Virus genome (UHGV): UHGV-0175528
Source: a virus
Reading direction: 5' to 3' (one strand)
DNA length: 18,135 bases
Shown one piece after another: positions 1-16,448 of this stretch. Position numbers and translations under genes: made by a program. The notes below the pieces were generated by a model. The model had not been told where the DNA came from. It was given only the letters and a program-made list of their open reading frames with translations, and did no database searches. Every line of letters begins with the position of its first letter. Positions within the stretch are counted from its first letter, which is position 1.

Positions 1-36
1 AAAAACAATATTATCAGCGGCTCGGAAGTGTCTAGA

Positions 37-972
37 TTATCTGTGGCGATTCAGAAAGATAAATTCTCGATTTCCACTTAACGGCTTCATCATCTCTAGT
101 ATCGCAATTGCTTCATCTGACAATGGAACAGTATGGTCGCGGTTCATTTTCATGCGTGCTGCAGGAATCTTCCACTCTCGCGCTTCTATGTCTACCTCTT
201 CCCAGAGAGCTTCAGCCGCTTCGGCAGGGCGGGTAATAGTAAGAAGTTGCCACATGAACAGGCAGCGTGTGGAAAGGCTAATGCTGGCTGTTCGCATCGT
301 CTGCATTAACTGAGGTAGCTGATCCGGTCGAATGCTGGGCATGTTCTTTTTCTGAGGCTTCTCGAAGGCTTTACCGATATTAACGCTGGGAACAGCATCA
401 ATCAGCCCTGTGTTCTGGGCATAGATCATGACCTCATTAATACGTTGGCACAGGCGACGAACAGTTTCCAGTGCTCCTCTGGCCTGAACCGGTTGTACGG
501 CCTGAACCAGTGTATGAGCTTTAATATCTGTAACGCTAACGTCGCCAATCGCAGGAAAGACGTCTCTTTCAAGAGAGCGCCAGATATCTTCCGCATAGTC
601 CTCTGTCACACTGGCTTTCTTCACATTCCACCAACGTTCAGCTACGAGTTGGAAAGTGTTGGTTTTGGCTTCCAGCGAACTGCGCAATTGTTCTTGCTGA
701 TGTTCCTGCGGATCGATCTGTTTAGCCAGTAGTGAGCGGGACTCTGCACGGTAGTTTCTGGCATCGGCAAGGGTAACTGACGGGTAGGAGCCTATGCTCT
801 TCTTTGCTCGTTTCTTGGTGACAGGGCGAATGTAGCGAAACTGCCAGATTTTACTCCCGCTGGATTTAATGAGTAGCTCAAGGCCATCGCCATCATAGAG
901 AACGTAGTCCGCCTCCTTGGGTTTGGCTGATTCTATTTCTTTAACGGATAGAGGTTTGGTTTGTCTTGCCAT
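37..972 (-). CDS. intA: P4-type (CP4-57 IntA-like) tyrosine integrase, N-terminal 311 aa only; ends after ...REFIFLNRHR, so the C-terminal catalytic region (HxxR and Tyr) is missing; probable pseudogene or remnant
   Basis: N-terminus MARQTKPLSVKEIESAKPKEADYVLYDGDGLELLIKSSGSKIWQFRY is typical of P4-family integrases. The conserved WxEVDxxxxEWxIPAxRMKxxRxHxVPLS block is present, but the ORF stops about 100 aa short at 37-39 (TAA). ATG at 970-972. Confidence 0.7.
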   Translation of the reverse strand: MARQTKPLSVKEIESAKPKEADYVLYDGDGLELLIKSSGSKIWQFRYIRPVTKKRAKKSIGSYPSVTLADARNYRAESRSLLAKQIDPQEHQQEQLRSSLEAKTNTFQLVAERWWNVKKASVTEDYAEDIWRSLERDVFPAIGDVSVTDIKAHTLVQAVQPVQARGALETVRRLCQRINEVMIYAQNTGLIDAVPSVNIGKAFEKPQKKNMPSIRPDQLPQLMQTMRTASISLSTRCLFMWQLLTITRPAEAAEALWEEVDIEAREWKIPAARMKMNRDHTVPLSDEAIAILEMMKPLSGNREFIFLNRHR

Positions 973-990
973 TGCCGGGTTTCCATAGTT

Positions 991-1044
991 TTAGGCACCT
1001 CAAAAAACAATAAAGCTTTATGAGGTGCCTAACAAGGTGCCTAA
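991..1044. repeat. Inverted plus direct repeats of AGGTGCCTAA upstream of the truncated integrase start; possible regulator or arm-type binding sites
   Basis: TTAGGCACCTCA (991-1002) is the exact reverse complement of TGAGGTGCCTAA (1021-1032); AGGTGCCTAA recurs directly at 1035-1044. Confidence 0.5.
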
Positions 1045-1098
1045 AAGGATCGGATTTAATTAGTTTTCTTCGGACTTCGCGGGACAAATTGAGGGCAC

Positions 1099-1130
1099 AA
1101 AAAAGCCCGCAGGGCTTGCGCCGTGCGGGC
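1099..1130 (-). terminator. Intrinsic terminator on the minus strand just downstream of the tmRNA 3'-end copy
   Basis: Minus strand reads GCCCGCA-12 nt loop-TGCGGGC followed by TTTTTT (plus-strand A-run 1099-1104, stem arms 1105-1111 and 1124-1130). Confidence 0.55.
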
Positions 1131-1177
1131 TCTTAGGACTTCATCGGATGACTCTGGTAATCACCGATGGAGAATTT

Positions 1178-1204
1178 TGGTGGAGCTGGCGGGAGTTGAA
1201 CCCG
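1178..1204 (-). other. Attachment-site core: 27-nt copy of a tmRNA (ssrA) 3' end (T-arm plus acceptor stem plus CCA), not a full gene
   Basis: Minus strand reads CGGGTTCAACTCCCGCCAGCTCCACCA, which matches my recollection of the E. coli ssrA 3' terminus; the flanking sequence on the 5' side is unrelated AT-rich DNA, so only the core is present. Confidence 0.55.
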
Positions 1205-1366
1205 TGATCGGGATTTACATAATGTGTTGAATATGAACGATTTATTTTTTCATGCAAGACATTATGTGCATTTTACGTACATATCGTTGTCCCAGTAACG
1301 TCCTGATTCTGTCCAATATTTTGAAACATGTGTAGAATGTGGATTTTCGATTTTTGTAGAGAATTT

Positions 1367-2281
1367 CGGATGAAGGTTCTTGTTCCACCTCCTGAAATTT
1401 GTATTTATTCTGATAAGTACCGACTAGACACATTGAAATTTCTTAACGACATTGACACGATGGGGGTGACGGATGGTTGTAAGCTTGAGATTGATTTATC
1501 TAACGTTCGTTTTGCTTCAGCTGCGGCATCGCTACTATTTTTCGCAATAGTTAATCGGGCAAATCTGCTTACAGGTGATCCTAACTTGATACGTTTCAAA
1601 TGGCCGAAAAAAAACGACAATCCAAATGGGCATAAGTGGTTAGTTAGCACCGGGCTCTCTAAAGCTCTCCTGGCTGGAACCCCAGAGAAATTAGAAAATC
1701 TTATTAAAGATGGGCGTTTTTTTCAGTCTGCTACCGAACCATTTTCGCATTTATTGGACACAGTTAGTGTATTACAGTCGAAGGCAGCGTTAAATCAGCA
1801 TCAGTTAAATCTGCTCATGACAGCTGTTGGTGAGGCACTTTTGAATGTTTCGCATCATGCATACGAACATGAGATGTTTTCACAAGATTTAATTCTGCTC
1901 CAGGGGAAGCGTTGGTGGCAGTGTGCGTGGTTTGATCCTGCGCAAAATGAGGTTGTTTTTATCGTTTGTGATCTGGGGTTGGGGATTTTTCGATCGTTTA
2001 GTCCCGAGGCTGATGGTGTTAGTATAGAAAAACAAGTATCTTCAGTAGCAAGAGCTATGCTTGTTGGGCAGAGCCGTTTTGTAGGGGACGGGCGAGGGAA
2101 TGGCTCGGAAGACATAAAGAGGCCTATCGGTGTTGGGTGTGAGGATAAAGAAACACTCTTAATTCTGACCGGCAATGTACGATATAGCTATAATTCTTTC
2201 GACGAAGAACCTCGCTGTGAGAAACTTGCAGAGTATATTCCAGGTACATTGCTTCAGTGGTCCCTTACTCCAAGGAGATGA
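1367..2281 (+). CDS. GHKL-family ATPase / putative serine-protein kinase (SpoIIAB/RsbW anti-sigma-factor-like fold) with an N-terminal STAS-like segment
   Basis: N-box GEALLNVSHHAY, G1 box VCDLGLGIF, G2 box GDGRGNG and G3-like PGTLLQW sit in the C-terminal half in the order seen in SpoIIAB. N-terminal KLEIDLSNVRFASAAASLLF resembles the downstream STAS-like protein. Start is uncertain (ATG at 1328, 1337 or 1367), with no strong SD. Confidence 0.6.
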   Translation, partial: RMKVLVPPPEICIYSDKYRLDTLKFLNDIDTMGVTDGCKLEIDLSNVRFASAAASLLFFAIVNRANLLTGDPNLIRFKWPKKNDNPNGHKWLVSTGLSKALLAGTPEKLENLIKDGRFFQSATEPFSHLLDTVSVLQSKAALNQHQLNLLMTAVGEALLNVSHHAYEHEMFSQDLILLQGKRWWQCAWFDPAQNEVVFIVCDLGLGIFRSFSPEADGVSIEKQVSSVARAMLVGQSRFVGDGRGNGSEDIKRPIGVGCEDKETLLILTGNVRYSYNSFDEEPRCEKLAEYIPGTLLQWSLTPRR

Positions 2282-2285
2282 AAAC

Positions 2286-2609
2286 ATGGTTATAGTCATA
2301 GCTAAGCAATTTTCTAAAACGCCGTTTGGTCGATACACGTCGGACGGTCCTGACAGTGCTGAAAGATTCAGAAGAGATTTTTTGGTTCCAGCCTTTAAAT
2401 CGAGTGGCGAAAAAATTGTTGTGGATTTCAGGGGGATTGCTTTAGGTGTGGGGTCTTCTTTCTTGGAGGAAGCCTTCGGTGGGTTAGTGCGTAAAGAGGG
2501 GATTGCCAAATCTGAAGTTAAAACACGCTTAGAAATCGAAAGTGATATGCCATTTTATCAAGAACAGATATCTAAGTTTGTTGATCAAGCAAAACCTGAG
2601 TTGGCATAA
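2286..2609 (+). CDS. Small STAS-like protein (DUF4325-like; anti-sigma-antagonist-like), 107 aa
   Basis: AAGGAG SD 8 nt upstream of ATG 2286, 4 nt after the upstream stop. Motif KIVVDFRGIALGVGSSFLEEAFGGL resembles the STAS DxSG phospho-acceptor region. Confidence 0.6.
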   Translation: MVIVIAKQFSKTPFGRYTSDGPDSAERFRRDFLVPAFKSSGEKIVVDFRGIALGVGSSFLEEAFGGLVRKEGIAKSEVKTRLEIESDMPFYQEQISKFVDQAKPELA

Positions 2610-2622
2610 GGATTTTTGAAGA

Positions 2623-3192
2623 ATGGCGCAATATGCATGGATGTTTAGTGTCACAAGCATTGCTTTAGTGTTTGTCGGATGGTGGGTAACGTATTGTAAC
2701 GCTATGCGAATAGCTACACGTTCAGAGTCAAAGTCTATAGTTGATTCATTGACGAAACTTGTGAGTGAGCTTGCTGATATTTCGATAGATTATTGGCTTA
2801 AAAAAGTATCTCACATAACACCTCCTCCTGAATCATTACAGGGTTCAGTTGTTCCTGTTGAGGCTGCTGAGTATCTCACTGTGCTTTTGGCGAAGGCAAG
2901 CCAGGCAGGGCATTATTTTAAGTTACTGAATATTCGAGGTATTGAAGCTGATGCAAGTAAGCTATCTGCAGTGTTAGAAAAAACAAGCCTTGACTGTGAG
3001 ATCGCTTATTGTCAATCAGCTTCAGAACGCTGTGTGAGGGCTAATGAAATTATGTCTGTTTGCATGGAGGTGATAGAAGATATTCACTCTAATTTTCAAG
3101 CAGCATACCCTCCATCAAAACATATTTCACCTATTGCATGGTATAAAAGTAAAGTCAAAGAAATTGAAGAATGGCACGCTAGTATGTATTAG
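2623..3192 (+). CDS. Hypothetical membrane-anchored protein (one N-terminal TM helix, about 150-aa soluble domain), 189 aa
   Basis: ORF follows the STAS-like gene by 13 nt. N-terminal AWMFSVTSIALVFVGWWVTYC is hydrophobic. AT-rich like its two neighbours; no recognisable catalytic motif. Confidence 0.5.
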   Translation: MAQYAWMFSVTSIALVFVGWWVTYCNAMRIATRSESKSIVDSLTKLVSELADISIDYWLKKVSHITPPPESLQGSVVPVEAAEYLTVLLAKASQAGHYFKLLNIRGIEADASKLSAVLEKTSLDCEIAYCQSASERCVRANEIMSVCMEVIEDIHSNFQAAYPPSKHISPIAWYKSKVKEIEEWHASMY

Positions 3193-4360
3193 AGTTGTAT
3201 GTCTTTACTGATTTCCCATCGTATTCAGCCAAATACGAACCGTAATGTCGAAAAAGCATTTCCGGTCCTTTATGCCCCATCTGACCAGCAAGCCAGAACA
3301 GGTTAACGCCCTGGCTAATGTGCCGAGTGGCGAACGTGTGGCGTGTCTGGTACGGATTGCGATAGCGTACACCAGCTTTTTTAAGGGTTGGCACCCAGGC
3401 TTTTTTTCGGATCGCGTCCGCATTTGCCCAAGGGGCGCGAGTTTTTGGATCGCTGAATATAAAGTCGCTTTTTAGCGCCGTGTAGGGCTTTTGTGCCTGA
3501 AGAGCCGCCAGCGCTTCGCTGTTCAGTTGCACTTTGCGGGTGCCGGCTTTTGTTTTGGTGCTTTTGATTACCCCGACTACGCTTGCAATCTGAACATGCG
3601 CGGTGTTGCCGATAAAGTCTATATCCGTCCAGCGCAACGCGCACAATTCTGAGCTGCGCAGTCCGGTATTAAAGGCAAAGCGAAACAGATTTCGCCATTC
3701 CGGGTAATGACAGGCGCCATAGATTGCTGCCGTCTCCGCTGGTGTAAAAGGATCGACCTCGTAATCATCACTGCCTGGTGTGTTGTCCAATACGTGATAC
3801 CGGCTGGCGCTGACTAGCGTGACAGGATTTATTGTTAACAAACCATCGGTCACCGCCTCATCTATGGCGCTGCGCAGGAATGAAAGATTATTGCGGATAG
3901 TTTTCAGTTTTGTTTTTCTGCTGGCGATCCAGTTTTTTAGTACTGCAGGTGTCAGTTCTGATACATGAAATTTATGCAATGCTGACAGCGCCGACAGGCA
4001 TTTTTCATAACCTCTAATTGTCGATGGTGACAGGTTACGGTTCTGGCAGATATTCAGGTATTCATCCAGGTAAGATTTTATATTTTTGTTTTTTTTCACT
4101 CCCCCGAATAGCTCCAGCTTTTGGGAGTTGGGGAAGTATTTTGCATACTCGAAGGTACCACTGATAATCTGATTTTTTATTTCTCCCAGCAGGCGCTCGG
4201 CATACTTCACACTGCGCGCGTTTACTTCCATTCTGGAGAGGGGCTCCCGACACAGAACCCCTTTATATGTAAAAGTGATAACCAGGGTGCTACCAGTTTT
4301 ATGCTGGCGAATAGTTACTCCTCTAGGGAGAGATAATGATCCTTGTTCTTTCTTGCCCAT
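3179..4360 (-). CDS. int: Tyrosine recombinase / phage integrase (lambdoid prophage Int), full length
   Basis: C-terminal catalytic region has RHTFATRH (HxxR region) and LFRHYGSY (Tyr). GGAGG SD 7 nt upstream of ATG 4358-4360; the track start at 4387 is a TTG. Confidence 0.9.
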   Translation of the reverse strand: MGKKEQGSLSLPRGVTIRQHKTGSTLVITFTYKGVLCREPLSRMEVNARSVKYAERLLGEIKNQIISGTFEYAKYFPNSQKLELFGGVKKNKNIKSYLDEYLNICQNRNLSPSTIRGYEKCLSALSALHKFHVSELTPAVLKNWIASRKTKLKTIRNNLSFLRSAIDEAVTDGLLTINPVTLVSASRYHVLDNTPGSDDYEVDPFTPAETAAIYGACHYPEWRNLFRFAFNTGLRSSELCALRWTDIDFIGNTAHVQIASVVGVIKSTKTKAGTRKVQLNSEALAALQAQKPYTALKSDFIFSDPKTRAPWANADAIRKKAWVPTLKKAGVRYRNPYQTRHTFATRHISQGVNLFWLAGQMGHKGPEMLFRHYGSYLAEYDGKSVKTYNSNTY

Positions 4361-4524
4361 TTTGTAACCTCCATTAAGTCGACCCAACGTTCTTTAACTC
4401 CGTCGACTTTTAATACATGTACCCCTTCTTTCCATATTCCTCTTTGTATCCGTTTGTTAACGGCATCAACCGTTTCTCCTGCGTTGCGGCAGTAGGTTGA
4501 TATAGGTACGCAATCCAGCCCCAC
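4315..4524 (-). CDS. xis: Putative excisionase (Xis-like small DNA-binding protein), overlapping the int 5' end
   Basis: 69-aa basic protein directly upstream of int, overlapping it by 46 nt as in lambda xis/int. Loose resemblance to excisionases (ISTYCRNAGETVDAVNKRIQRG). GTG start with a close SD. Confidence 0.5.
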   Translation of the reverse strand: MGLDCVPISTYCRNAGETVDAVNKRIQRGIWKEGVHVLKVDGVKERWVDLMEVTKWARKNKDHYLSLEE

Positions 4525-4532
4525 AGTTCACC

Positions 4533-4679
4533 TCATACAACACTCAGCCCACGGCAGTGGCACCACACTTCAAACATTCGCCTCACAACTTCACGACAGT
4601 AGAAGCCGTCAACGTCTCGCGTCAGGTCATAGCGATTGCCGTAACGCTGGCGTACCCATAGCTCAAATGCTTTATTCAT
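4533..4679 (-). CDS. Hypothetical small protein (48 aa), below the ORF-track length cutoff
   Basis: ATG 4677-4679 preceded by AGGAAA; MNKAFELWVRQRYGNRYDLTRDVDGFYCREVVRRMFEVWCHCRGLSVV. Fits the gap between the upstream gene and xis. Confidence 0.3.
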   Translation of the reverse strand: MNKAFELWVRQRYGNRYDLTRDVDGFYCREVVRRMFEVWCHCRGLSVV

Positions 4680-4682
4680 TCT

Positions 4683-4925
4683 CTATTTCCTTTTCATGGC
4701 TCGTAATTTTTTCAGATGAGCTTCCTGCTCTGTTTCTGCCAGAATTTGTCGGTATTCCTGGTGATCTATCCGTTCAAACGATTCATTAAAATCGCTTATT
4801 TTTACAGATTGTGTTCGCCCATCCATTCTTCTGTACAACACAGTGTTGTTTATGCAGCGAATAATTTTTATCGGGTAACCGGCACTGTCGGTATACAGTT
4901 GCCCTTGATTAATCAAAGCGAACAT
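4683..4925 (-). CDS. Hypothetical prophage protein (80 aa)
   Basis: Internal ATG at 4923-4925 has an AGGAG SD 5 nt upstream; the longer track ORF (to 5048) would overlap the upstream gene by 90 nt. Confidence 0.5.
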   Translation of the reverse strand: MFALINQGQLYTDSAGYPIKIIRCINNTVLYRRMDGRTQSVKISDFNESFERIDHQEYRQILAETEQEAHLKKLRAMKRK

Positions 4926-4956
4926 TTTTTCTCCTGCTCTCTGAATAGTGAGAACT

Positions 4957-5328
4957 TCAGAGCCGTATGTTTGTAGCGGGTTCAATACTGATAATTTCTG
5001 CTGAGATAAGCATCCCGGCAAGCCAGAGTTCTCTGGACAGGTCTTCATCCTGGCATATCAGTTCGCCAATATTAATGGTGGCCATGATATCTGTTTCCCC
5101 TGTGCGCTCATCCTCGACTTCTTCATAAGGCAGCGTTGCGTACAGGCTTTCAATAGCGCAACTGATAACATCCAGTCCGGTCAGATTGCCGCCGACAGTA
5201 ACTTCGAATGTTTCGCGGTATTCCCATAGTCCGAAAGTTAATCGAACGGTTTGTTTTGCCATGCGTCCGCATGACGTCAGATTCGGGTCATAGTTCATTA
5301 TTTGCGGTTGAGTATTCTGGGTGTTCAT
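4957..5328 (-). CDS. Hypothetical prophage protein (about 123 aa)
   Basis: ORF in the leftward operon; start chosen at the MNTQ ATG (5326-5328), which has a GGAA-type SD; acidic C-terminal half. Confidence 0.5.
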   Translation of the reverse strand: MNTQNTQPQIMNYDPNLTSCGRMAKQTVRLTFGLWEYRETFEVTVGGNLTGLDVISCAIESLYATLPYEEVEDERTGETDIMATINIGELICQDEDLSRELWLAGMLISAEIISIEPATNIRL

Positions 5329-5368
5329 CTGCATTTCCCTTAGCCCGGCGGCCTGCCGGGCATATAAG

Positions 5369-6196
5369 TTATTTAACCTGGATAAATGGTGTATTTGCAC
5401 CGCTGGTCATGTATTGCGGCAGTGTGCCGTTCCATTTATTGATGGCTTCCAACTCCATAACACCGGGGTTCTGGCGCAGAGCTTCACCGCGTAAACGAAT
5501 AGCATCGGCTTCGGCCTGGGCTTTTGTGCGAATCGCATCAGCCTGTCCGGCAGCTTCCGCGCGCAACATGTTGGCTTCCGCTTCGCACTGTTTAACTTCC
5601 TGCTCGCGCTGCAGTGTTTTCTGGTTCGCCGTGACTTTGGCATTAATGCTGTCGATAACGGTTGACGGGTACTCCGGCTTACCCACATATGAGAGGCTCA
5701 TTACCTGAATACCGATGGGTGTCATTTCCTCCTGGATGTCTTTAAGAGCTGCATCCAGTAGTTCAGACTTCCCGCCGTCGATAAATTTGTCGGTGGTCAT
5801 TTTGCTGGCCAGTCTATTGAGTGCGTCGGCGATCTTTTGACGTAGGTCGGTGTCGGTAATGTCATCCACGCCTTTGCGGTAGGTCTGAAACACCGTGGTA
5901 ACTTTGGATGGGTCAACTTTGTAGGCCACGCCGATGTGATAGCCGATGGTTGTACCGTCACTCATCTGGAAACTGAACGGTTCATCGTAGGTCTTCATTT
6001 GTTTGAAGGTCGGGAAGATGTAAACTTCAGTATTCCAGCCGGTCCAGTAGCGGCCAACGCCAACCACTTCACCGACGCCTTTGTCGTCGCCCAGTTTATT
6101 TACCTTGATGCCAACATTACCTGGTTCAACGCGATCGCAACCGACAAGGCCAATGGTCGGAAGAACAATGGCTAAAGCAAAAATAACTTTTTTCAT
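5369..6196 (-). CDS. SPFH/band-7 (prohibitin/HflKC-like) domain lipoprotein
   Basis: N-terminus MKKVIFALAIVLPTIGLVGC has a lipobox (LVGC). Central SPFH-like region and an Ala/Glu-rich coiled-coil C-terminus (AEAAGQADAIRTKAQAEADAIRLRGEALRQNP). Confidence 0.85.
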   Translation of the reverse strand: MKKVIFALAIVLPTIGLVGCDRVEPGNVGIKVNKLGDDKGVGEVVGVGRYWTGWNTEVYIFPTFKQMKTYDEPFSFQMSDGTTIGYHIGVAYKVDPSKVTTVFQTYRKGVDDITDTDLRQKIADALNRLASKMTTDKFIDGGKSELLDAALKDIQEEMTPIGIQVMSLSYVGKPEYPSTVIDSINAKVTANQKTLQREQEVKQCEAEANMLRAEAAGQADAIRTKAQAEADAIRLRGEALRQNPGVMELEAINKWNGTLPQYMTSGANTPFIQVK

Positions 6197-6381
6197 CTTT
6201 TACCCTTAGTGAAAGAAAGACCCTTGTAAATGGCATAAATGCAGGGCGGGGTCAGAAACGCCAGTGCAAAGCCGGAAATGACTGCTACCGTATCCTTCAT
6301 GGATATAAGGAACGGGACGAGTAGTCCGTAAATGCATGCGATAATTGCCAGTAAAATTACTATTCTGAAATACAATCTCAT
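6193..6381 (-). CDS. Small membrane protein (62 aa, two predicted TM helices) translationally coupled to the SPFH gene
   Basis: Its stop overlaps the SPFH start (ATGA-type overlap at 6193-6196). MRLYFRIVILLAIIACIYGLLVPFLISMKDTVAVISGFALAFLTPPCIYAIY is hydrophobic. Confidence 0.55.
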   Translation of the reverse strand: MRLYFRIVILLAIIACIYGLLVPFLISMKDTVAVISGFALAFLTPPCIYAIYKGLSFTKGKR

Positions 6382-6404
6382 TGGTTTGTTGCATCCCGAT
6401 ATTT

Positions 6405-6512
6405 TTAACTGACTGACAGCGCAATAAAGAGAATAATGATTTCTGTTAGTGTCAGTACTGTGGCAAGGATTAAAAGCAGTTTTACTCTGCTTAATTCACG
6501 ATTGCTTTTCAT
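6405..6512 (-). CDS. Candidate tiny hydrophobic peptide (35 aa), not in the ORF track
   Basis: ATG 6510-6512; MKSNRELSRVKLLLILATVLTLTEIIILFIALSVS has one TM-like helix; sits immediately upstream of the small membrane/SPFH pair. Confidence 0.3.
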   Translation of the reverse strand: MKSNRELSRVKLLLILATVLTLTEIIILFIALSVS

Positions 6513-6557
6513 ATAAACGGTTAGTAAAAAACGGAAGAATTATATTCTTCTTAATAT

Positions 6558-7139
6558 TTAATGTGTCACTGGCGCTTCTGGCATACCATGAGTATTCAGA
6601 TCGTGAATCATTTCATCCAGAAGGAGTTCAAGCCCTTCGCGCCCCATAGCAGAGACAATGAAACCATTATTAGGATCTGCGATGAGCATTTTTTGATAGA
6701 GAAACAGAACTCGCCCCATGCCTTCAGCTTCACCATATTTTTCAATAAATCCCCATTCGACATGGTTTTGCAGGGCAATGCGAAGTGGTCCTGGGTATAT
6801 ACTCATGCAACCATGCTTCCCCTTATAAATAACTGCGCGATCTGTAGTTCCGTTATCGTTAGGGATATCAATGGTGCCGTTCTTGTCTTCCACTTCACTG
6901 ATAAATTTCGCTACATATAGCCAGCGCCACTGGGCAACCTTCATATCGACTGAAAATTTGCCCAGCAGTCCGGCATCATCAGCTTCTGCAATACATTGCA
7001 TGATTCTTAACCCATGCCAGTATGGATTATCGTATTCACCATCATTAAGCCGCTGTACGGCCTCAACATAATCAATGGTTGTATTGCCAATTTTTATGCC
7101 ATGTGGCGTAACTTCTGGTCGGAACTCTGAATGATTCAT
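6558..7139 (-). CDS. Hypothetical protein (193 aa), no recognised domain
   Basis: Start taken at the MNHSEFRP ATG (7137-7139), which overlaps the upstream gene's stop (ATGA-type coupling). Confidence 0.55.
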   Translation of the reverse strand: MNHSEFRPEVTPHGIKIGNTTIDYVEAVQRLNDGEYDNPYWHGLRIMQCIAEADDAGLLGKFSVDMKVAQWRWLYVAKFISEVEDKNGTIDIPNDNGTTDRAVIYKGKHGCMSIYPGPLRIALQNHVEWGFIEKYGEAEGMGRVLFLYQKMLIADPNNGFIVSAMGREGLELLLDEMIHDLNTHGMPEAPVTH

Positions 7140-7324
7140 AATGTTTGCTCCTTTGCTGGTGGAATAATCGTGTAGCCAGCTCTTTTTGCCATCCACAGAA
7201 ATGTATCCATGCAGCCAACGAATTCATTATCCAACAGATGTTTTGAGTAAATTACTTCACCATTTTCAATGGTTAGCAACACTCTTACTTTTTTATGTGT
7301 TATGTTCTGTTGTTTTTCTTTCAT
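7136..7324 (-). CDS. Hypothetical small protein (62 aa), coupled to the downstream 193-aa gene
   Basis: GGGAGA SD 7 nt upstream of ATG 7322-7324; stop overlaps the next start. Confidence 0.5.
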   Translation of the reverse strand: MKEKQQNITHKKVRVLLTIENGEVIYSKHLLDNEFVGCMDTFLWMAKRAGYTIIPPAKEQTL

Positions 7325-7522
7325 TTATTTATCTCCCATATGCTTTGCGCAAATACAGGTTGGCTATATGAAGATAAGAATCTCCATGTTGTGCAATGAG
7401 GCAGGCAGTTTTATACGATGCCTTATTTTTCAGGAAAGTCATAACTGAGTTCCCTCTATGAATAAAGGTTGTAACAATCCCCGGCGATAAAACCGTAATA
7501 AACGTTCAGAGCATGTTTGTTG

Positions 7523-7888
7523 TTATTGCGCTAGTTCTTTTTCGGCAGCAGCTTTTGCATATTCACATGCAAAATTCAGAATTTCGCTACCGAGTGTTTT
7601 TATTTCGTTATTACTGGACATATGTAATACCTGTGTTGCATGCAATAAATGATAAACATTTACCGCAAATGAGTCCGGCTCCAGACAAATGCCTTCATAA
7701 TCATCTTGCTGTGAGGTTGTTTCTGTCATTGCTCCTGAAGTGCATGCGAGCCTGTTTTTGACAATTCTCTTTCCTCTAATCACTATATCGGCTACATCTA
7801 TTGCCTTTACAACCTCCGGGAGAAATTCCTGGTTTGTATAATCAAAGTTATCAACATGGAGAACAGTTATGTTTTCGAACTTTTTCAT
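7523..7888 (-). CDS. Hypothetical prophage protein (121 aa)
   Basis: Complete ORF in the leftward operon; no recognised motif. Confidence 0.5.
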   Translation of the reverse strand: MKKFENITVLHVDNFDYTNQEFLPEVVKAIDVADIVIRGKRIVKNRLACTSGAMTETTSQQDDYEGICLEPDSFAVNVYHLLHATQVLHMSSNNEIKTLGSEILNFACEYAKAAAEKELAQ

Positions 7889-8069
7889 GGCTTCCTCAGC
7901 TGACTTATATGTTCTGCTATATAGCGAGTCTCAGAAGTGTTTTCATATTGAGACTGTTTCCTCAATGATTGATAATTAGTTACCGGATGCTTATCCGTGT
8001 CCGGCGCACGACCACACGTAGCCGCGTGTTGGTCTCCATTTACAATTCAGCTCTCAATGGAGGATAAAA

Positions 8070-8296
8070 TGATTAACGAAGAGCAACTTGAAAAAGAAAT
8101 TTCAGCGCTCAAAAAAGAATTAATGTGGCACAAAGTCGCTATCTCTGCATTAATTCGTCAGGTGGTTTCACCTGAAGATAAAGTAAATTTTATGAAGCAC
8201 TTCTCATGTTCATCAAATGAATTTTTTACTGACGGTCCTCATCCAGAGGCTGGTTTTTGGATCCGTCAACTATTTTCGCAAGATAAGCGTAAATAG
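8070..8296 (+). CDS. Hypothetical small protein (75 aa) on the opposite strand to its neighbours
   Basis: GGAGG SD 6 nt upstream of ATG 8070 (MINEEQLEKEISALKKEL...); a strong hairpin lies 14 nt past its stop. Confidence 0.5.
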
Positions 8297-8468
8297 TGTC
8301 GTCAATGTTCGCATCGCTCTTGAATTTAAGAGCGATGCTCTTAATATCCTCTGAAATTATTGCCAGATTACCGTATGTTATATTTTTATTATTGCGCTCA
8401 GCGCTTTTTTGTATGCAATCAAGCAATTCACCAATGAGACATATGTGGTAAGCATCACAGTTTTTCAT
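8226..8468 (-). CDS. Hypothetical small protein (80 aa), possibly coupled to the upstream HTH gene; overlaps the 3' end of the + strand gene
   Basis: ATG 8466-8468 overlaps the TGA of the HTH gene (ATGA). However, the 11-bp hairpin at 8311-8338 lies inside this ORF, so it may be spurious. Confidence 0.35.
   Translation of the reverse strand: MKNCDAYHICLIGELLDCIQKSAERNNKNITYGNLAIISEDIKSIALKFKSDANIDDTIYAYLAKIVDGSKNQPLDEDRQ
8311..8338 (+). terminator. Strong hairpin (11-bp perfect stem, 6-nt loop) downstream of the 8070-8296 gene; probable terminator or RNA structure
   Basis: GCATCGCTCTT-GAATTT-AAGAGCGATGC, followed by TCTTAATAT. Confidence 0.45.
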
Positions 8469-8926
8469 GCGCAAGTATCCCCACCTGTTGGTTTACCGGT
8501 TAACAGCCACATCGGATCGCAGCCAAGAACATTTGCCAGTGGGATAAGCATACTGATAGTTGGTTCATACTCTCCGCTTTCCCACTGGATGATGATTTCT
8601 TCATCGAGATCGAGCAGCCTGGCGAGTTCGGCGGTTGTTAAGCCGCAGGCTTCGCGTTGGGTGCGAAGGTTAACCAGCCAGCTTTCAGGGAAGGATTGTT
8701 TTTGTTGTGCAGGAGAAGCCGCAGATAGAGCATATTCATGGATAAATTCCATTACTTCAATGCCCAGTTCCTTTGAGCGAGCACAATCCAGAAGATGGAA
8801 TGTGCGTACAGCACTTAGCAAATTTGCAATATTTAATGCAAAGGAATCAAGTTCTAAGCCCTTAAGCGTAACACAGCCGCAGTTGATAAAATTGGTTGTT
8901 TCTGGGGTTGCTTTTAGTGTTTTCAT
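8465..8926 (-). CDS. XRE-family helix-turn-helix protein (C-terminal HTH, about 90-aa N-terminal domain of unknown function), first gene of the leftward pL-like transcript
   Basis: C-terminal LTTAELARLLDLDEEIIIQWESGEYEPTISMLIPLANVLGCDPMWLLTG is a typical HTH_XRE. Sits directly downstream of a consensus-like sigma-70 promoter. Confidence 0.7.
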   Translation of the reverse strand: MKTLKATPETTNFINCGCVTLKGLELDSFALNIANLLSAVRTFHLLDCARSKELGIEVMEFIHEYALSAASPAQQKQSFPESWLVNLRTQREACGLTTAELARLLDLDEEIIIQWESGEYEPTISMLIPLANVLGCDPMWLLTGKPTGGDTCA

Positions 8927-8978
8927 ATATCCGCCAACAATTTTAAATTGAACATAATCAAGTTATAATTGATGGTGC

Positions 8979-9007
8979 GATATTATGCTTTGAGAAATAG
9001 GCTGTCA
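8979..9007 (-). promoter_or_regulatory. pL-like sigma-70 promoter driving the leftward operon
   Basis: Minus strand reads TTGACA (plus 9002-9007), 17-nt spacer, TAATAT (plus 8979-8984); nearby ATCAAG/TTGAT motifs resemble those in the cI-cro intergenic region. Confidence 0.5.
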
Positions 9008-9035
9008 AGAAAAAATTGATATCGTGCGTTTTAGG

Positions 9036-9061
9036 CAGAAAAAAAACGGGCAAAGCCCGTT
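9036..9061 (-). terminator. Intrinsic terminator downstream of the repressor gene
   Basis: Minus strand reads ACGGGC-TTT-GCCCGT followed by a run of about 8 T (plus-strand A-run 9038-9045). Confidence 0.7.
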
Positions 9062-9072
9062 AAAATCAAAGA

Positions 9073-9762
9073 CTAACCAAATCTGTTTATATTGAATGGT
9101 ACTGATGAGATCACTTTAGACTGGATATAAAGCAGAGCTAACCCCTCTTTTTCGATGCTCCATGGTTGATAATTGGGGTTATCAGATAACACCATGATTT
9201 TGCTTCCAATTTTCTGAAGTCTTTTCACGTAGCATTCTCCATCAAAACAAAATGCATAAATGCCATCGCCATCAAAATAAGTTACTGTCTTATCAAGAAA
9301 AAGAAGGTCGCCAGGTGAGATTGTGGGAGCCATACTGTCTCCTCTGGCGTTACCTATTTCTATATTTTTGAATGCCCGATTTCCAACAAGGCGTCGGGCA
9401 TATTCAGGATCAAGTTCTATTGAGCGCACTACATCTATCAAGTCACCACGTACATGAGTTCCATCACCGCAACTAAACTCAACATCAAGGACATTAAACA
9501 CGACGCTATCTGTTCTTGTCTGGTGTTTCTCTTGCGAGGAAAAGGTTGGTGAGGAGTCTTCACCTAAGAACCAGGATTGTGGATAACCGCTAATCTCTGA
9601 TAAATGCGCGAGCTTATCACTCCGTGGAAATGTTTTTCCTGTTGTCCAGTACTGCACTGATTGCGCACTCACACCTAACTTGCGGGCCAGTTGAGCCTGA
9701 GTCCATCCTTTGGCTTTCAGCATTGCGGCTATTCGATTTTCCGTGTTTTTGACGTTCTTCAT
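9073..9762 (-). CDS. cI: CI-like phage repressor (N-terminal HTH, C-terminal S24 LexA-type autopeptidase)
   Basis: HTH region WTQAQLARKLGVSAQSVQYW; S24 nucleophile motif GDSMAPTISPGDLLFLDK and Lys in CYVKRL. ATG at 9760-9762 has an AGGA SD; the track start at 9768 is a TTG. Confidence 0.9.
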   Translation of the reverse strand: MKNVKNTENRIAAMLKAKGWTQAQLARKLGVSAQSVQYWTTGKTFPRSDKLAHLSEISGYPQSWFLGEDSSPTFSSQEKHQTRTDSVVFNVLDVEFSCGDGTHVRGDLIDVVRSIELDPEYARRLVGNRAFKNIEIGNARGDSMAPTISPGDLLFLDKTVTYFDGDGIYAFCFDGECYVKRLQKIGSKIMVLSDNPNYQPWSIEKEGLALLYIQSKVISSVPFNINRFG

Positions 9763-9895
9763 GACCAAATCCTGTGGGTTTCTTTACAAGGATAAATCTT
9801 TATTTGATTTTAGTGTATTCGATCCTTTTGCAACTTGCATGTTAATTTAAACTTGATGTATTCTTGATTCATAAAGTTAATATTGGTGCTTTGTT
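9763..9895. promoter_or_regulatory. Divergent cI/cro control region (OR-like operators with pRM/pR-type promoters)
   Basis: 133-bp AT-rich spacer between divergent repressor and Cro-like genes. Repeated CTTGAT / ATCAAG-type half-sites (AACTTGATG, TTCTTGATTCAT, GCAACTTGCATG) are shared with the pL region. Confidence 0.6.
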
Positions 9896-10168
9896 ATGAA
9901 AGAAAGTGATTACGACAAACTTCGTGCATTAATTGCGCAAAATGCTGTAGCGCGAAATCTTGGTGTGACGCCGCAAGCGGTGAATCAGTGGTTTTCAAAA
10001 AACACAATTCCTGCTCGTTTCGTTTTACGCGTATGTGAAGTAGTTGCATGGAAAGTCACGCCACATGGCTTAAGGCCAGATCTTTATCCTCATCCTGAAG
10101 ATGGAATTCCTGATTCGTTACGCAAAATTTCAAATCCAAGCTTAGCGCACACAGAGGATGAGAAGTGA
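9896..10168 (+). CDS. cro: Cro-like / YdaS-family small HTH regulator
   Basis: Divergent from cI; LGVTPQAVNQWFSKNTIPARFVLRVCEV is typical of the Cro/YdaS family; 90 aa. Confidence 0.75.
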   Translation: MKESDYDKLRALIAQNAVARNLGVTPQAVNQWFSKNTIPARFVLRVCEVVAWKVTPHGLRPDLYPHPEDGIPDSLRKISNPSLAHTEDEK

Positions 10169-10208
10169 TGGTGGTGATATGAGCGAAAAAATAACTATTA
10201 AATACGAT

Positions 10209-10231
10209 GGGGCAACCATTTCGATTGCCCC
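10209..10231 (-). terminator. Hairpin between convergent cro and the minus-strand 97-aa gene; possible terminator
   Basis: GGGGCAA-9 nt-TTGCCCC perfect 7-bp stem, 7 nt past the minus-gene stop; followed on the minus strand by a T-rich stretch (ATCGTATTTAATAGTTATTTTTT). Confidence 0.4.
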
Positions 10232-10238
10232 AATCACA

Positions 10239-10532
10239 TTAGCGTTCGCTGAGAAGTTGTTGGTAAGCCTTAAAGGATGCGAACTGCATTCTACCTTCGG
10301 CATTGATTCCAATGTCTTCGCTTGTACACCAGGCGATGAACTCGGCTGTATCCGCTTCAACTTTAATAACTCGTTGCCCGCTTCTTTCGACACGCTTAAT
10401 CAATTTTTCAGCGTCGTGTTTCCACTCGGTGTAACTGTCGGAGAGCACATCAGCATCAGTAAAAATATTTTTGAGCTCATGATACTGAATCGCATCGCGA
10501 AACCAGAATAAACCAACGGCCTGAACTTTCAT
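10239..10532 (-). CDS. Hypothetical protein (97 aa) transcribed antisense to the early-right operon
   Basis: Very good SD (AAAGGAGG, 6 nt) before ATG 10530-10532. The overlapping + strand ORF 10158-10511 has a poorer initiation context. Confidence 0.5.
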   Translation of the reverse strand: MKVQAVGLFWFRDAIQYHELKNIFTDADVLSDSYTEWKHDAEKLIKRVERSGQRVIKVEADTAEFIAWCTSEDIGINAEGRMQFASFKAYQQLLSER

Positions 10533-10651
10533 GTCGAACCTCCTTTGGTTCTTTTGTTTATAGGGATCAAAAGGATAACTGAAGGAAGGTTCGGCACCAA
10601 TAAGTACGAATGTGCGGAATCTTAAAAGAATTTATCCGTAAGGAGATGGCG

Positions 10652-11359
10652 ATGAGCACTGCAATTTTTAACGGCAAAGCATCCATGACCAGCCTTGAAA
10701 TCGCAGAGCTGGTGGGTAAGCGTCATGACAATGTGAAACGAACTATTGAAACATTGGCCAAAGGTGGCGTTGTTCGGTCTCCTCAAATTGAGGTTTCCGA
10801 AAGAATCAATAACTTAGGTTTTAAAGTTCAATATGAGCATTACCTGTTTGAAGGAGAACAAGGTAAGCGCGACAGTATCATTGTCGTCGCTCAGCTTTGC
10901 CCCGAATTCACAGCCCGCCTGGTAGATCGCTGGCGCGAACTGGAAGAACAGATCCGTAAGCCAATGAGCGAAATCGAAATGGTTGCCGCAATGGCCCTTG
11001 AAGCCGTTCGCCAACAGAAACGGATCACTCAGGTGGAAGAAAAAGTCAGCCACGTTGCTGAAACAGTCGAGCAAATCAAAAAGGGCACTATTCGTGAGGG
11101 CTATGCCGGATATCGCCAACTGAAAGCGAAAACCGGTTTGTCAGATGATAAATGCCGCAATCTGGTGAACGCTTATCAAATTCCTACAGATACCCACGAG
11201 TTTATGACGCCGGACGGATTGTTATCACGTCGCGCAATTGTTGCTGTAGAACCGTTTATGGCTGCTTTTTATCGGGTTACGGAGGAAGCAGAACCGCGAG
11301 GGACTCGCTGGTATCACCCGAAAATAGGGTTATTTCAGGTTATTGGTTGGCAGCGGTGA
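10652..11359 (+). CDS. Rha-family phage regulatory protein (antirepressor-like), N-terminal Rha domain plus C-terminal domain
   Basis: MSTAIFNGKASMTSLEIAELVGKRHDNVKRTIETL matches the Rha (Phage_pRha) N-terminal signature; AGGAG SD 6 nt upstream of ATG 10652. Confidence 0.75.
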   Translation: MSTAIFNGKASMTSLEIAELVGKRHDNVKRTIETLAKGGVVRSPQIEVSERINNLGFKVQYEHYLFEGEQGKRDSIIVVAQLCPEFTARLVDRWRELEEQIRKPMSEIEMVAAMALEAVRQQKRITQVEEKVSHVAETVEQIKKGTIREGYAGYRQLKAKTGLSDDKCRNLVNAYQIPTDTHEFMTPDGLLSRRAIVAVEPFMAAFYRVTEEAEPRGTRWYHPKIGLFQVIGWQR

Positions 11360-11385
11360 AAAAAAAGCCGGGTAGTCACCCGGCT
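11359..11385 (-). terminator. Strong intrinsic terminator oriented for minus-strand transcription
   Basis: Minus strand reads GCCGGGT-GACT-ACCCGGC followed by 9 T (plus-strand A-run 11359-11367, stem arms 11368-11374 and 11379-11385). Confidence 0.65.
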
Positions 11386-11450
11386 CGCTCAACGTTAGTA
11401 AAGACAACTTCACAGAGAAGTAAGCCAGTAACATCCAAGAACATTTGCCT
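11362..11450 (-). ncRNA. Candidate small antisense RNA (about 90 nt, oop-like) with its own promoter and terminator
   Basis: Minus-strand promoter TTGAAA (plus 11480-11485), 18-nt spacer, extended -10 TGgTATTTT (plus 11456-11464); transcript would end at the 11359-11385 terminator. No ORF of meaningful length. Confidence 0.3.
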
Positions 11451-11775
11451 TAGTAAAAATACCAGTAAGCATATGAATGTTTCAAGCCTAAATATTGATT
11501 CTGCAATTTCGGGACGTTACACTGTTCTGGCACCTTATAAAGCGGGTGCCGGGATTGGAACCCCGGAATTGTCAGCGGCGACAAACGACGCGCCAGCGTC
11601 TTTTTTGTTGTCAGCGCCTGCGCACACCCAAATTATGGTGGGCTGGGCAGGGGAGCCGAAAGGCTCGCCGGTTCCCGTTGACGCCGGTAGTTCCAACCCT
11701 GTTCAGTCCGCCACCAGCGAGCTTGGAACCTCCGGTGGTGGATATTATCACCCACTGTCAACGGAGGCTGCCATC

Positions 11776-12138
11776 ATGGCTACTGTCCCAACTTCTCCAT
11801 ACCTGAAAATCGAAGTCGTCAACGGCAAAGCTGTTATTTTCTCCTTGCATGTTGCCTGTCATTTCAAGCGCATGCACCAGAACATCGTCGACAAAATCGA
11901 GTATCTGAACTGCTCACGCGAGTTTTTTACCCGCAATTTCATACCGGGTACTTATCACATCTATGGTGATTCTCTGCATGGTTATTACATCACCCTTGAT
12001 GGGCTGATGATGCTTCAGCTTGGGCTAAGTCTGCGCACAATGCGGTACTACGAGAGCTGCATTGAAGCATTCCATGAGGCAGAAAACAGCCTCAGTCATA
12101 CCGCTTTCCGCCGTAATCAATGGGAGGCGCGTCCATGA
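11776..12138 (+). CDS. Short Rha-domain protein (120 aa)
   Basis: GGAGG SD 7 nt upstream of ATG 11776; MATVPTSPYLKIEVVNGKAVIFSLHVACHFKRMHQNIVDKIEYL...FFTRNF...YITLDGLMMLQLG follows the Rha-domain pattern. The track ORF extends upstream to 11152, but that part overlaps the previous gene and a GC-rich segment. Confidence 0.65.
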   Translation: MATVPTSPYLKIEVVNGKAVIFSLHVACHFKRMHQNIVDKIEYLNCSREFFTRNFIPGTYHIYGDSLHGYYITLDGLMMLQLGLSLRTMRYYESCIEAFHEAENSLSHTAFRRNQWEARP

Positions 12139-12329
12139 TTAGTTACGAAATTATTATTTCCACAACGGAATACAGAAACGATGTATCAGTTCGCACAGAT
12201 ACATCTGTCTGGCACCGCCGCTATAAATCCAGAAAAACGGCGGAACGCAAAGCGGCAGAGATGTGTGAAACCATCTCAATGAAAGGTAGCCCGGTTAAAT
12301 ACGTAACTACGGCGGAGGTGCGTCCATGA
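12135..12329 (+). CDS. Hypothetical small protein (64 aa)
   Basis: GGGAGG SD 7 nt upstream of ATG 12135; ATGA overlap with the upstream stop. Confidence 0.5.
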   Translation: MISYEIIISTTEYRNDVSVRTDTSVWHRRYKSRKTAERKAAEMCETISMKGSPVKYVTTAEVRP

Positions 12330-13503: not shown

Positions 13504-13513
13504 GGTGACAGCG

Positions 13514-16417: not shown

Positions 16418-16448
16418 CTAACGTTAGCTAACAAAGTTGAATAAAAAG

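What the first reader, a model, noticed from the sequence alone, without database searches (positions are those of the whole stretch)
1328..3192. Phage-borne partner-switching-like cassette (STAS-GHKL kinase, STAS-like protein, membrane protein) between att and int
Three co-oriented, tightly spaced, visibly AT-rich genes sit between the att core and the integrase, a slot where temperate phages usually carry defence or conversion cargo (for example e14 carries lit there). Gene 1 has SpoIIAB/RsbW-like N, G1, G2 and G3 boxes in its C-terminal half. Its N-terminal segment (KLEIDLSNVRFASAAASLLF) resembles the small gene 2 product (KIVVDFRGIALGVGSSFLEEAF), but with Ala where gene 2 has the Ser-Ser pair, as if one is a phospho-acceptor and the other a non-phosphorylatable decoy. 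Gene 3 has a single N-terminal TM helix and could be the effector. I know of no described anti-phage or phage-regulatory system with this architecture.
Basis: partly seen in the sequence, partly recalled or inferred. Interest (0 to 1): 0.85.

Follow-up and report, generated by a model that had tools for sequence, protein, structure and literature searches.

The report
Prophage kinase–STAS switch with membrane protein
A prophage carries, between its attachment site and its integrase, a conserved three-gene cassette: an anti-sigma-type protein kinase, its small STAS-like substrate and a membrane-anchored helical protein. It looks like an undescribed membrane-effector version of the recently published VapKSC anti-phage kinase switch.

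Summary
Window 1370-3192 encodes three tightly packed, co-oriented genes under purifying selection.

- **Gene 2 (107 aa):** a Pfam DUF4325 STAS-like protein. Its conserved Ser57 aligns with the phospho-acceptor Ser48 of VapS.
- **Gene 3 (189 aa):** an N-terminal hydrophobic helix running into a four-helix bundle, with no enzyme fold.

The 1.88 kb cassette is a clean insertion. E. coli C5 has the same ssrA-att/integrase junction with 31 bp in its place.

The same trio occurs in all 21 kinase lineages sampled, almost always in prophages. It usually lies beside an integrase or directly downstream of the cI repressor. One case is the isolated Marinobacter phage AS1.

The closest described system is VapKSC (Chambers et al., EMBO J 2026). 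There, a STAS-GHKL kinase phosphorylates a DUF4325 antitoxin to release a PIN toxin. Here the PIN toxin is replaced by a membrane protein, a variant the paper does not mention.

The most likely function is a prophage-encoded abortive-infection or exclusion switch. That function, the trigger and the role of gene 3 are inferred, not shown. Verdict: new variant of a known kind.

The parts
1181..1206 (-). 3'-terminal fragment of ssrA (tmRNA); the att core duplicate at the prophage end
   Evidence: The reverse complement reads CGGGTTCAACTCCCGCCAGCTCCACCA. I recognise this from memory as the 3' end of E. coli tmRNA. Rfam gives a partial tmRNA match on the minus strand with E 1e-4, below the gathering score. 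ARAGORN finds no complete tmRNA in the window.
1330..3211 (.). 1.88 kb accessory cassette, present or absent relative to otherwise collinear E. coli loci
   Evidence: E. coli C5 (L031) aligns to window 54-1329 at 99.1% and to 3212-5336 at 95.4%, with only 31 bp in between. Of 828 E. coli genomes matching the flanks, only 1 carries the cassette. No flanking repeats were found.
1370..2281 (+). Gene 1 ('K'): N-terminal STAS domain plus C-terminal SpoIIAB/RsbW-like GHKL Ser/Thr kinase, 303 aa
2286..2609 (+). Gene 2 ('S'): DUF4325 STAS-like protein, 107 aa; the candidate phospho-acceptor is Ser57
   Evidence: Pfam PF14213 E 4.3e-14, the same family as VapS (E 2.7e-17). S57 is at least 90% conserved and F59 is invariant in 18 sequences. 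VapS S48 and F50 fall in the same columns.
2623..3192 (+). Gene 3: N-terminal hydrophobic (transmembrane) helix continuous with a four-helix bundle, 189 aa; the candidate effector
3179..4387 (-). Lambdoid tyrosine integrase, convergent with and overlapping gene 3 by 14 nt
   Evidence: Pfam Arm-DNA-bind_2 E 1.6e-19 and Phage_integrase E 5.7e-19.
37..972 (-). Truncated P4-type integrase of a neighbouring ssrA island (context only)
   Evidence: Pfam Arm-DNA-bind_3 and Phage_int_M; the catalytic domain covers only profile positions 3-101 of 172. The intact 413-aa homologue is in E. coli C5.

Best explanation
The cassette is a self-contained, horizontally mobile prophage accessory module. It works as a one-way phosphorylation switch of the VapKSC type, with a membrane protein as output.

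**Proposed mechanism**
1. In the lysogen, gene 2 (S, a DUF4325 STAS-like protein) binds the cytoplasmic four-helix bundle of gene 3 and keeps it inactive.
2. On a cue of phage infection, gene 1 (K, a STAS + anti-sigma-type GHKL kinase) becomes active and phosphorylates S on Ser57.
3. Phospho-S lets go of gene 3.
4. Gene 3 then perturbs the inner membrane.
5. This aborts the infection or excludes the superinfecting phage.

**Shown here**
- The folds and domain architecture of K and gene 3.
- The family membership of S.
- Strict conservation of the kinase active site and of the acceptor Ser.
- Invariable K-S-small-membrane-protein synteny.
- Prophage cargo status.

**Inferred by analogy with VapKSC**
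- That K phosphorylates S.
- That S inhibits gene 3.
- That gene 3 is a toxic effector.
- That the outcome is anti-phage defence.

The trigger is unknown and may not be ssDNA.

For: **Gene 2 matches VapS.** Both belong to Pfam DUF4325. Ser57 aligns with VapS Ser48. That residue is the site whose phosphomimetic releases the toxin in VapKSC (paper).

**Gene 1 matches VapK in architecture.** Both have STAS + GHKL with no HTH, at 303 versus 302 aa. Sequence similarity is weak but detectable: 17.6 bits and hhalign E 2e-4. The intermediate P0227 links the two, scoring 30.7 bits to VapK and 8e-31 to the gene 1 profile.

**The trio is collinear in all 21 kinase lineages examined**. The third protein always begins with a hydrophobic helix followed by basic residues. 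It matches the gene 3 profile in 17 of the 21.

**Fused forms exist.** PHROG 5816 (441 positions) matches gene 2 only at its C-terminal positions 341-439, so the DUF4325 domain also occurs at the end of a larger phage protein.

**The location fits lysogen-expressed cargo.**
- Beside integrases of different families in seven lineages: window, E. coli A41, Salmonella, Klebsiella, Pluralibacter, Vibrio, Cognaticolwellia.
- Directly downstream of cI-type repressors: Marinobacter phage AS1, a Pasteurella phage-plasmid, an Oceanospirillaceae prophage, and Francisella phage KIRK according to its paper.
- Source calls: 7, 12, 21, 53, 55, 65, 66, 77, 78.

**The cassette is a clean indel** under purifying selection.

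**No phosphatase or sigma factor is present in the cassette**. This fits an irreversible trigger.
Against: - No experiment exists on any member of this family.
- PADLOC v2 has no model matching gene 1 or gene 3.
- Homology of gene 1 to VapK is marginal and covers only the C-terminal half. Gene 2 versus VapS is not significant by BLASTP (E 1.5).
- Gene 3 has no recognisable toxin or pore fold. Its bundle resembles sensor domains as much as anything else, so it could be an input rather than an output.
- The window copy's hydrophobic helix is only borderline by hydropathy (1.6).
- The residue equivalent to the VapK ssDNA-site Phe is aromatic in only 109 of 243 relatives.
- A DNA-damage trigger would be awkward for a prophage that is itself SOS-induced.
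- No multimer modelling could be run, so no K-S or S-gene 3 interaction is shown.
Confidence: 0.55

Rival explanations
1. The cassette is a regulator of the prophage's own life cycle rather than a defence against other phages. K senses DNA damage or another stress and phosphorylates S. The membrane protein then modulates induction, lysis timing (holin/antiholin-like) or host physiology.
For: The characterised relative CapK-CapS is a DNA-damage-responsive regulator. In several phages the trio lies immediately downstream of the cI repressor, in the immunity region. Gene 3 is a single-pass helical protein with no toxin fold.
Against: Gene 2 has no DNA-binding (wHTH) domain, unlike CapS. The cassette is dispensable: closely related prophage junctions lack it, and phiP27 has no equivalent. 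It moves between unrelated prophage types and slots, including tail and capsid modules. That pattern is typical of morons rather than core regulators.
Confidence: 0.15
2. The cassette is a toxin-antitoxin addiction module that stabilises the prophage. Gene 3 is the toxin, gene 2 the antitoxin, and gene 1 a modifier, with no role in phage defence.
For: It has the same logic as VapKSC, which its authors describe as a TA locus. The operon is tightly coupled with small ORFs. It sits at the prophage end.
Against: VapKSC itself protects against phage Bas42, so TA behaviour and defence are not exclusive. The kinase active site is strictly conserved across 243 relatives, which argues for a regulated trigger rather than passive addiction.
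Confidence: 0.12
3. Roles are reversed, as in classical partner switching. The membrane protein (gene 3) is the sensor or anchor that sequesters K or S at the membrane, for example to sense DNA injection or membrane stress. The output is a host or phage target outside the cassette.
Confidence: 0.13

Closest known systems
VapKSC (VapK-VapS-VapC) of Escherichia sp. E4736; Chambers et al., EMBO J 2026, PMC13373217
   Same: Both are three-gene operons in the order kinase, small STAS protein, third protein. The kinase has STAS + GHKL without an HTH (302 versus 303 aa). The N-box spacing is the same (E-x3-N-x3-H), as are the G1, G2 and G3 motifs. The second protein is Pfam DUF4325 with a conserved Ser in the same column and a short C-terminal helix.
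   Different: The third gene here is a membrane-anchored four-helix bundle, not a PIN nuclease. Kinase sequence similarity is marginal. The gene 1 family has its own near-invariant RWW motif and lacks a conserved equivalent of VapK F54. The cassette is found almost exclusively inside prophages.
CapK-CapS transcriptional controllers of immune operons (same paper)
   Same: A GHKL anti-sigma-type kinase with its own STAS domain phosphorylates a STAS protein on a conserved Ser at the start of helix alpha-2.
   Different: CapK has an N-terminal HTH, and CapS has a C-terminal wHTH and represses a downstream operon. Gene 1 and gene 2 lack both domains. No immune operon follows the pair here, only gene 3 and a convergent integrase.
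Classical partner-switching modules: SpoIIAB-SpoIIAA, RsbW-RsbV (Bacillus), UsfX/RsbW-RsfB (Mycobacterium)
   Different: There is no sigma factor and no PP2C phosphatase in or next to the cassette. The kinase carries its own STAS domain. The substrate is of the DUF4325 type.
SiaB-SiaC of Pseudomonas aeruginosa (kinase and DUF1987 STAS-like substrate controlling the SiaD cyclase)
   Different: SiaABCD includes a PP2C phosphatase and a diguanylate cyclase output (from my own knowledge). It is chromosomal housekeeping signalling, not phage cargo.
RexAB of phage lambda (functional and positional analogy only)
   Same: A lysogen-expressed exclusion module with a cytoplasmic sensor and a membrane effector, encoded directly downstream of cI (from my own knowledge). 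The trio occupies this slot in Marinobacter phage AS1, a Pasteurella phage-plasmid, an Oceanospirillaceae prophage and Francisella phage KIRK.
   Different: There is no sequence or fold relationship, and no PADLOC hit. RexB has four TM helices, while gene 3 has one.

Membership tests
VapKSC | Kinase with STAS + GHKL domains and no HTH (VapK) | tested here: met
VapKSC | Sequence homology of the kinase to VapK | tested here: inconclusive
   hhalign probability 47%, E 2e-4, C-terminal half only. hmmsearch gives 17.6 bits. There is a transitive link through P0227 (30.7 bits to VapK; E 8e-31 to the gene 1 profile).
VapKSC | [quoted passage not shown] | tested here: met
   Both match PF14213. S57 aligns with VapS S48 and is at least 90% conserved.
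VapKSC | Third gene: VapC-like PIN nuclease toxin | tested here: not met
VapKSC | Conserved aromatic residue at the STAS-GHKL groove (VapK F54 / CapK W68) for ssDNA activation | tested here: inconclusive
   By-eye alignment puts gene 1 F48 opposite VapK F54. That column is Y/F in only 109 of 243 relatives. No coordinates or DNA docking were available.
VapKSC | Kinase-dependent phage protection and antitoxin behaviour of S | not testable with these tools
   This needs toxicity, pull-down, Phos-tag and plaque assays.
CapK-CapS regulators | HTH on the kinase, wHTH on the STAS protein, and position upstream of an immune operon | tested here: not met
   Neither protein has an HTH or wHTH domain. 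Gene 2 is only 107 aa. The downstream neighbours are gene 3 and a convergent integrase.
Classical anti-sigma partner switching (SpoIIAB/RsbW type) | GHKL anti-sigma kinase fold with N, G1, G2 and G3 boxes | tested here: met
Classical anti-sigma partner switching (SpoIIAB/RsbW type) | Cognate sigma factor and PP2C phosphatase in the module | tested here: not met
   Neither is in the cassette. Neither recurs in the flanks of related loci.
Pfam DUF4325 (PF14213, STAS-like) | Score above the Pfam gathering threshold | tested here: met
   Gene 2 scores 52.4 bits against a cut-off of 23.
Known defence systems in PADLOC-DB v2.0.0 | HMM match of any cassette protein | tested here: not met
   No hit for gene 1 or gene 3 at E up to 1. 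Gene 2 gives only a 12-bit match to 'Orf5'.

The most novel reading that the evidence does not exclude
This is the founding example of a large, prophage-borne family of immunity or exclusion modules. The family counts about 1,000-2,000 kinase clusters at 50% identity. In it, an anti-sigma-type kinase/STAS phospho-switch gates a single-pass membrane effector. That would make it a partner-switching module whose output is the membrane rather than a sigma factor, a repressor or a nuclease. It often sits in the same lysogen-expressed slot as lambda rexAB. Its kinase carries a family-specific WW motif and may sense a cue other than ssDNA.
Probability: 0.4. Interest if true: 0.72.

Novelty: new variant of a known kind. 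Interest (0 to 1): 0.6.

Why it matters
If the model is right, the kinase-STAS switch just described for CapKS and VapKSC is a general, modular trigger. Temperate phages would have coupled it to a membrane effector and spread it widely as lysogen cargo.

The profile search finds 1,086 clusters at E below 1e-10. Hosts range from Enterobacterales to Vibrio, Marinobacter, Pasteurella and probably Francisella.

This would add an unannotated, common prophage defence or exclusion system to the catalogue. All members are currently 'hypothetical protein', and PADLOC v2 has no model matching the kinase or the membrane protein.

It would also give a simple three-protein system for studying two questions. 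One is how a phospho-switch controls a membrane protein. The other is how a prophage avoids triggering its own abortive system during induction.

Tried and rejected
- **PADLOC, NCBIfam and PDB sequence searches:** nothing usable.
- **tblastn of gene 1 against 50,697 phage genomes:** no hit at 1e-5. Gene 2 found only Marinobacter phage AS1 and a weak jumbo-phage hit.
- **Foldseek against AFDB50:** not available. BFVD gave only one marginal hit for gene 3.
profile-profile comparison gave probability 8%, not significant. The resemblance is at fold level only.
- **Promoter scan:** fewer promoter-like sites than in shuffled sequence, so no promoter is claimed.
- **Flanking repeats that could explain cassette mobility:** none found.
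- **GiPD474, a Gifsy prophage defence ATPase:** checked as a possible identity and rejected. It is a ParA-like P-loop protein.
- **The jumbo-phage comparative paper mentioning GHKL and STAS:** irrelevant.
- **Multimer or DNA-complex modelling:** could not be run.
Full report
**What is in the sequence**

Window 1328-3192 contains three co-oriented ORFs on the + strand. Alignment with homologues and the RefSeq annotation of the only E. coli complete genome that carries the cassette (strain A41) put the gene 1 start at ATG 1370, giving 303 aa, rather than at 1328. Gene 2 is 2286-2609 (107 aa) and gene 3 is 2623-3192 (189 aa).

The genes are separated by 4 and 13 nt, each spacer carrying a Shine-Dalgarno-like sequence. 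Gene 3 overlaps the 3' end of the convergent integrase (3179-4387) by 14 nt. GC content drops to 0.375-0.445 across the cassette, against 0.47-0.52 on either side. dN/dS against the A41 copy is 0.25, 0.31 and 0.07.

**Genomic setting**

- Positions 1181-1206 are, on the minus strand, CGGGTTCAACTCCCGCCAGCTCCACCA. I recognise this as the 3' end of ssrA. Rfam gives a partial tmRNA match here (E 1e-4, below gathering), and ARAGORN finds no complete tmRNA. This is the att duplicate at the end of a prophage integrated into ssrA.
- To the left lies a truncated P4-type integrase (37-972), a remnant of a second ssrA island.
- To the right of the integrase, the window is 94.7% identical to the early region of Stx2e phage phiP27. 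phiP27 itself has only 18 nt between attL (1-11) and int (from 30), so it has no cargo there.
- E. coli C5 aligns to window 54-1329 (99.1%) and 3212-5336 (95.4%), with just 31 bp in between.

The three genes therefore form a clean 1.88 kb insertion/deletion (1330-3211) in an otherwise conserved att-int junction. Of 828 E. coli genomes that match the flanks, one has the cassette. No flanking repeats were found.

**Gene 1**

Pfam gives only a sub-threshold HATPase_c_2 match (24.7 bits against a 27.4 cut-off). An AlphaFold2 model built on 28 homologues is confident (pLDDT 85.7, pTM 0.87).

Gene 1 is therefore a STAS domain fused to an anti-sigma-type Ser/Thr kinase.

In 243 full-length relatives, residues E155, N159, H163 (N box), D201, G203 (G1), G243 and G245 (G2) are invariant. 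G205, R242, G292 and T293 are conserved in 233-240 of the 243. This indicates a working ATP site. The family also has a near-invariant W182-W183 pair (238 and 242 of 243), which I cannot explain.

**Gene 2**

Gene 2 is a member of Pfam DUF4325, the 'STAS-like' family (52.4 bits). Across 17 homologues from very different hosts, the motif G-S-S-F-L-E is almost invariant: Ser57 is at least 90% conserved and Phe59 is invariant.

**Gene 3**

Gene 3 has no Pfam, NCBIfam or PADLOC match. Its AlphaFold2 model is confident (pLDDT 87.6). It shows one long helix (residues 5-64) whose first ~20 residues are hydrophobic, leading into a four-helix bundle.

The hydrophobic segment is borderline in the window copy (Kyte-Doolittle 1.6) but clear in several homologues (2.06-2.5). 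Basic residues follow it (R29, R33, K37), which by the positive-inside rule puts the bundle in the cytoplasm. That topology is an inference.

**Conservation of the trio**

A species-level genome scan found eight loci with gene 1 at 33-55% identity. They come from Pluralibacter, Budvicia, Rouxiella, Serratia, Cognaticolwellia, Enterobacter, an Oceanospirillaceae MAG and Aeromonas. All have genes 1, 2 and 3 in the same order.

The same holds for:
- Salmonella, Vibrio, Yersinia and Klebsiella
- the isolated temperate Marinobacter phage AS1 and a Pasteurella phage-plasmid
- five distant kinases picked from an exhaustive profile search

Altogether 21 of 21 kinase lineages are followed by a DUF4325 gene and then a small protein that begins with a hydrophobic helix. 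In 17 of them the third protein matches the gene 3 profile.

The exhaustive search finds 2,161 clusters (50% identity) at E below 1e-3, 1,086 below 1e-10 and 95 below 1e-30. PHROGs hold all three genes as families of unknown function. PHROG 5816 (441 positions) matches gene 2 only at its C-terminal end, so the domain also occurs fused to a larger phage protein.

**Where the trio sits**

- In Salmonella it is always next to the same lambdoid integrase, while the other flank varies: P4-type islands, a P2 prophage, or the csiD-gab locus.
- In Klebsiella and Pluralibacter it abuts a different, Rac-type integrase.
- In Vibrio it abuts the integrase of a small prophage. In Cognaticolwellia it lies between an integrase and a chromosomal TonB receptor gene.
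- In Marinobacter phage AS1, the Pasteurella element and the Oceanospirillaceae prophage it lies directly downstream of the cI-type repressor. The gene table of the Francisella phage KIRK paper shows the same arrangement: cI, a 293-aa protein, a DUF4325 protein, then a TM protein.
- Elsewhere it lies among tail or capsid genes.

These are the classical positions of lysogen-expressed accessory genes.

**Comparison with what is known**

The literature search for DUF4325 gave only passing mentions. One mention noted that a VapC subgroup is 'transcriptionally coupled to DUF4325 genes'.

The decisive paper is Chambers et al., EMBO J 2026 (PMC13373217). It describes two systems:
- **CapK-CapS.** CapK (HTH-STAS-GHKL kinase) is activated by ssDNA and phosphorylates CapS (STAS-wHTH repressor) on a conserved Ser.
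- **VapKSC.** VapK (STAS-GHKL) is proposed to phosphorylate VapS (a STAS protein with a short C-terminal tail) on Ser48, releasing the PIN toxin VapC. The operon gives about 2 logs of protection against phage Bas42.

I recovered the VapK and VapS sequences from the paper's AlphaFold3 source file.
- VapS is DUF4325 (E 2.7e-17), the same family as gene 2. Its Ser48 and Phe50 fall in the same alignment columns as gene 2 Ser57 and Phe59.
- VapK has the same length and architecture as gene 1 and the same E-x3-N-x3-H, DxGxG, RGxG and GT motifs.
- Sequence similarity is marginal: hhalign probability 47%, and 17.6 bits over the C-terminal half. It is bridged by intermediates such as P0227.

The third gene differs fundamentally: a membrane-anchored helical bundle instead of a PIN nuclease. 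Neither the paper nor its 69 supplementary files mention a transmembrane variant, prophages or DUF4325. The cassette is therefore not a member of VapKSC, because the defining toxin is absent. It is best described as a VapKSC-like switch with a different output.

**Most likely mechanism**

This is inferred by analogy with VapKSC.
1. S binds and silences the cytoplasmic bundle of gene 3.
2. An infection cue activates K.
3. K phosphorylates Ser57.
4. Phospho-S dissociates.
5. Gene 3 then acts on the inner membrane, causing abortive infection or exclusion.

The absence of any phosphatase or sigma factor fits a one-way trigger.

I do not assume that ssDNA is the trigger, for three reasons. The residue opposite VapK F54 is aromatic in only 45% of relatives. 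The family has its own WW motif. A DNA-damage trigger would also fire during the prophage's own SOS induction.

The rivals are a role in the prophage's own life cycle, a pure addiction module, and gene 3 acting as sensor rather than effector. None can be excluded without experiments. The strictly conserved three-gene unit with highly variable flanks argues against an output encoded elsewhere.

The contrast of Ala in gene 1 with Ser-Ser in gene 2 depends on an ungapped alignment. The profile-profile alignment of the two domains is not significant and ends before that motif. Gene 1 has a Ser/Thr at the N-cap of the corresponding helix in 203 of 243 relatives. In CapK and VapK the kinase's own STAS domain is proposed to build the ligand groove. 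I regard the decoy reading as unsupported, not disproved.

**Verdict**

The cassette is real, mobile and widespread. It is related in logic and parts to a system published in 2026, but with an undescribed membrane output and a strong prophage association. I rate it a new variant of a known kind, with interest 0.6.

Noticed in passing
window 37-972 (-), and window 1-53: The P4-type integrase is truncated to 311 aa: the catalytic domain covers only profile positions 3-101 of 172. Homology to the intact 413-aa gene of E. coli C5 starts only at window position 54, so something has replaced the integrase 3' end at the left edge of the window.
   Followed up: partly
window 1099-1187 (-): Rfam gives an IsrM sRNA match (32 bits, E 2e-7, far below the gathering score of 376). 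It covers essentially only the GC-rich terminator hairpin next to the ssrA fragment and is probably not a real IsrM gene.
   Followed up: no
window 1217-1267: A 16-nt inverted repeat (88% complementary, 19-nt spacer) lies in the att-proximal region shared with cassette-less E. coli. It could be a recombinase or host-factor site, or an operator.
   Followed up: no
window 3182-3211: The last ~10 codons of the integrase lie inside the cassette-specific DNA, because alignment to E. coli C5 resumes only at 3212. The cassette insertion therefore changed the integrase C-terminus.
   Followed up: partly
window 4530-18135: The early region is 94.7% identical to Stx2e phage phiP27, including repressor, Ant, DnaC-like loader, helicase, Q-like and GIY-YIG nuclease genes. 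The int/xis module differs from phiP27, so this is a mosaic prophage.
   Followed up: partly
gene 1 residues 181-187 (window about 1910-1930): The R-W-W-Q-C-A-W motif is nearly invariant across 243 relatives (W182 in 238, W183 in 242) and is absent from VapK. It may be a family-specific ligand or partner site.
   Followed up: partly
PHROG 5816 (profile positions 341-439 of 441): Gene 2 matches only the C-terminal end of a 441-position phage protein family. The DUF4325 domain therefore also occurs at the C-terminus of a larger phage protein; I did not look at what the rest of that protein is.
   Followed up: no
L009:4726-6332 (Aeromonas MAG): A HipA_2-like kinase gene and a DUF3037 gene lie immediately upstream of the trio. 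This may be another conflict-system pair in the same island.
   Followed up: no
L008:4671-5282 (Oceanospirillaceae MAG prophage): A protein with a Tad2-like (Thoeris anti-defence 2) domain fused to a phage gp49/66 domain is encoded about 1 kb from the cI gene, which is itself followed by the trio.
   Followed up: no
L020:10623-16939 and L022 (Yersinia enterocolitica): A very large polyvalent protein (LPD5, LPD1, MuF_C and LPD38 domains; more than 2,500 aa) lies just downstream of the trio, in what looks like a phage or phage-plasmid.
   Followed up: no
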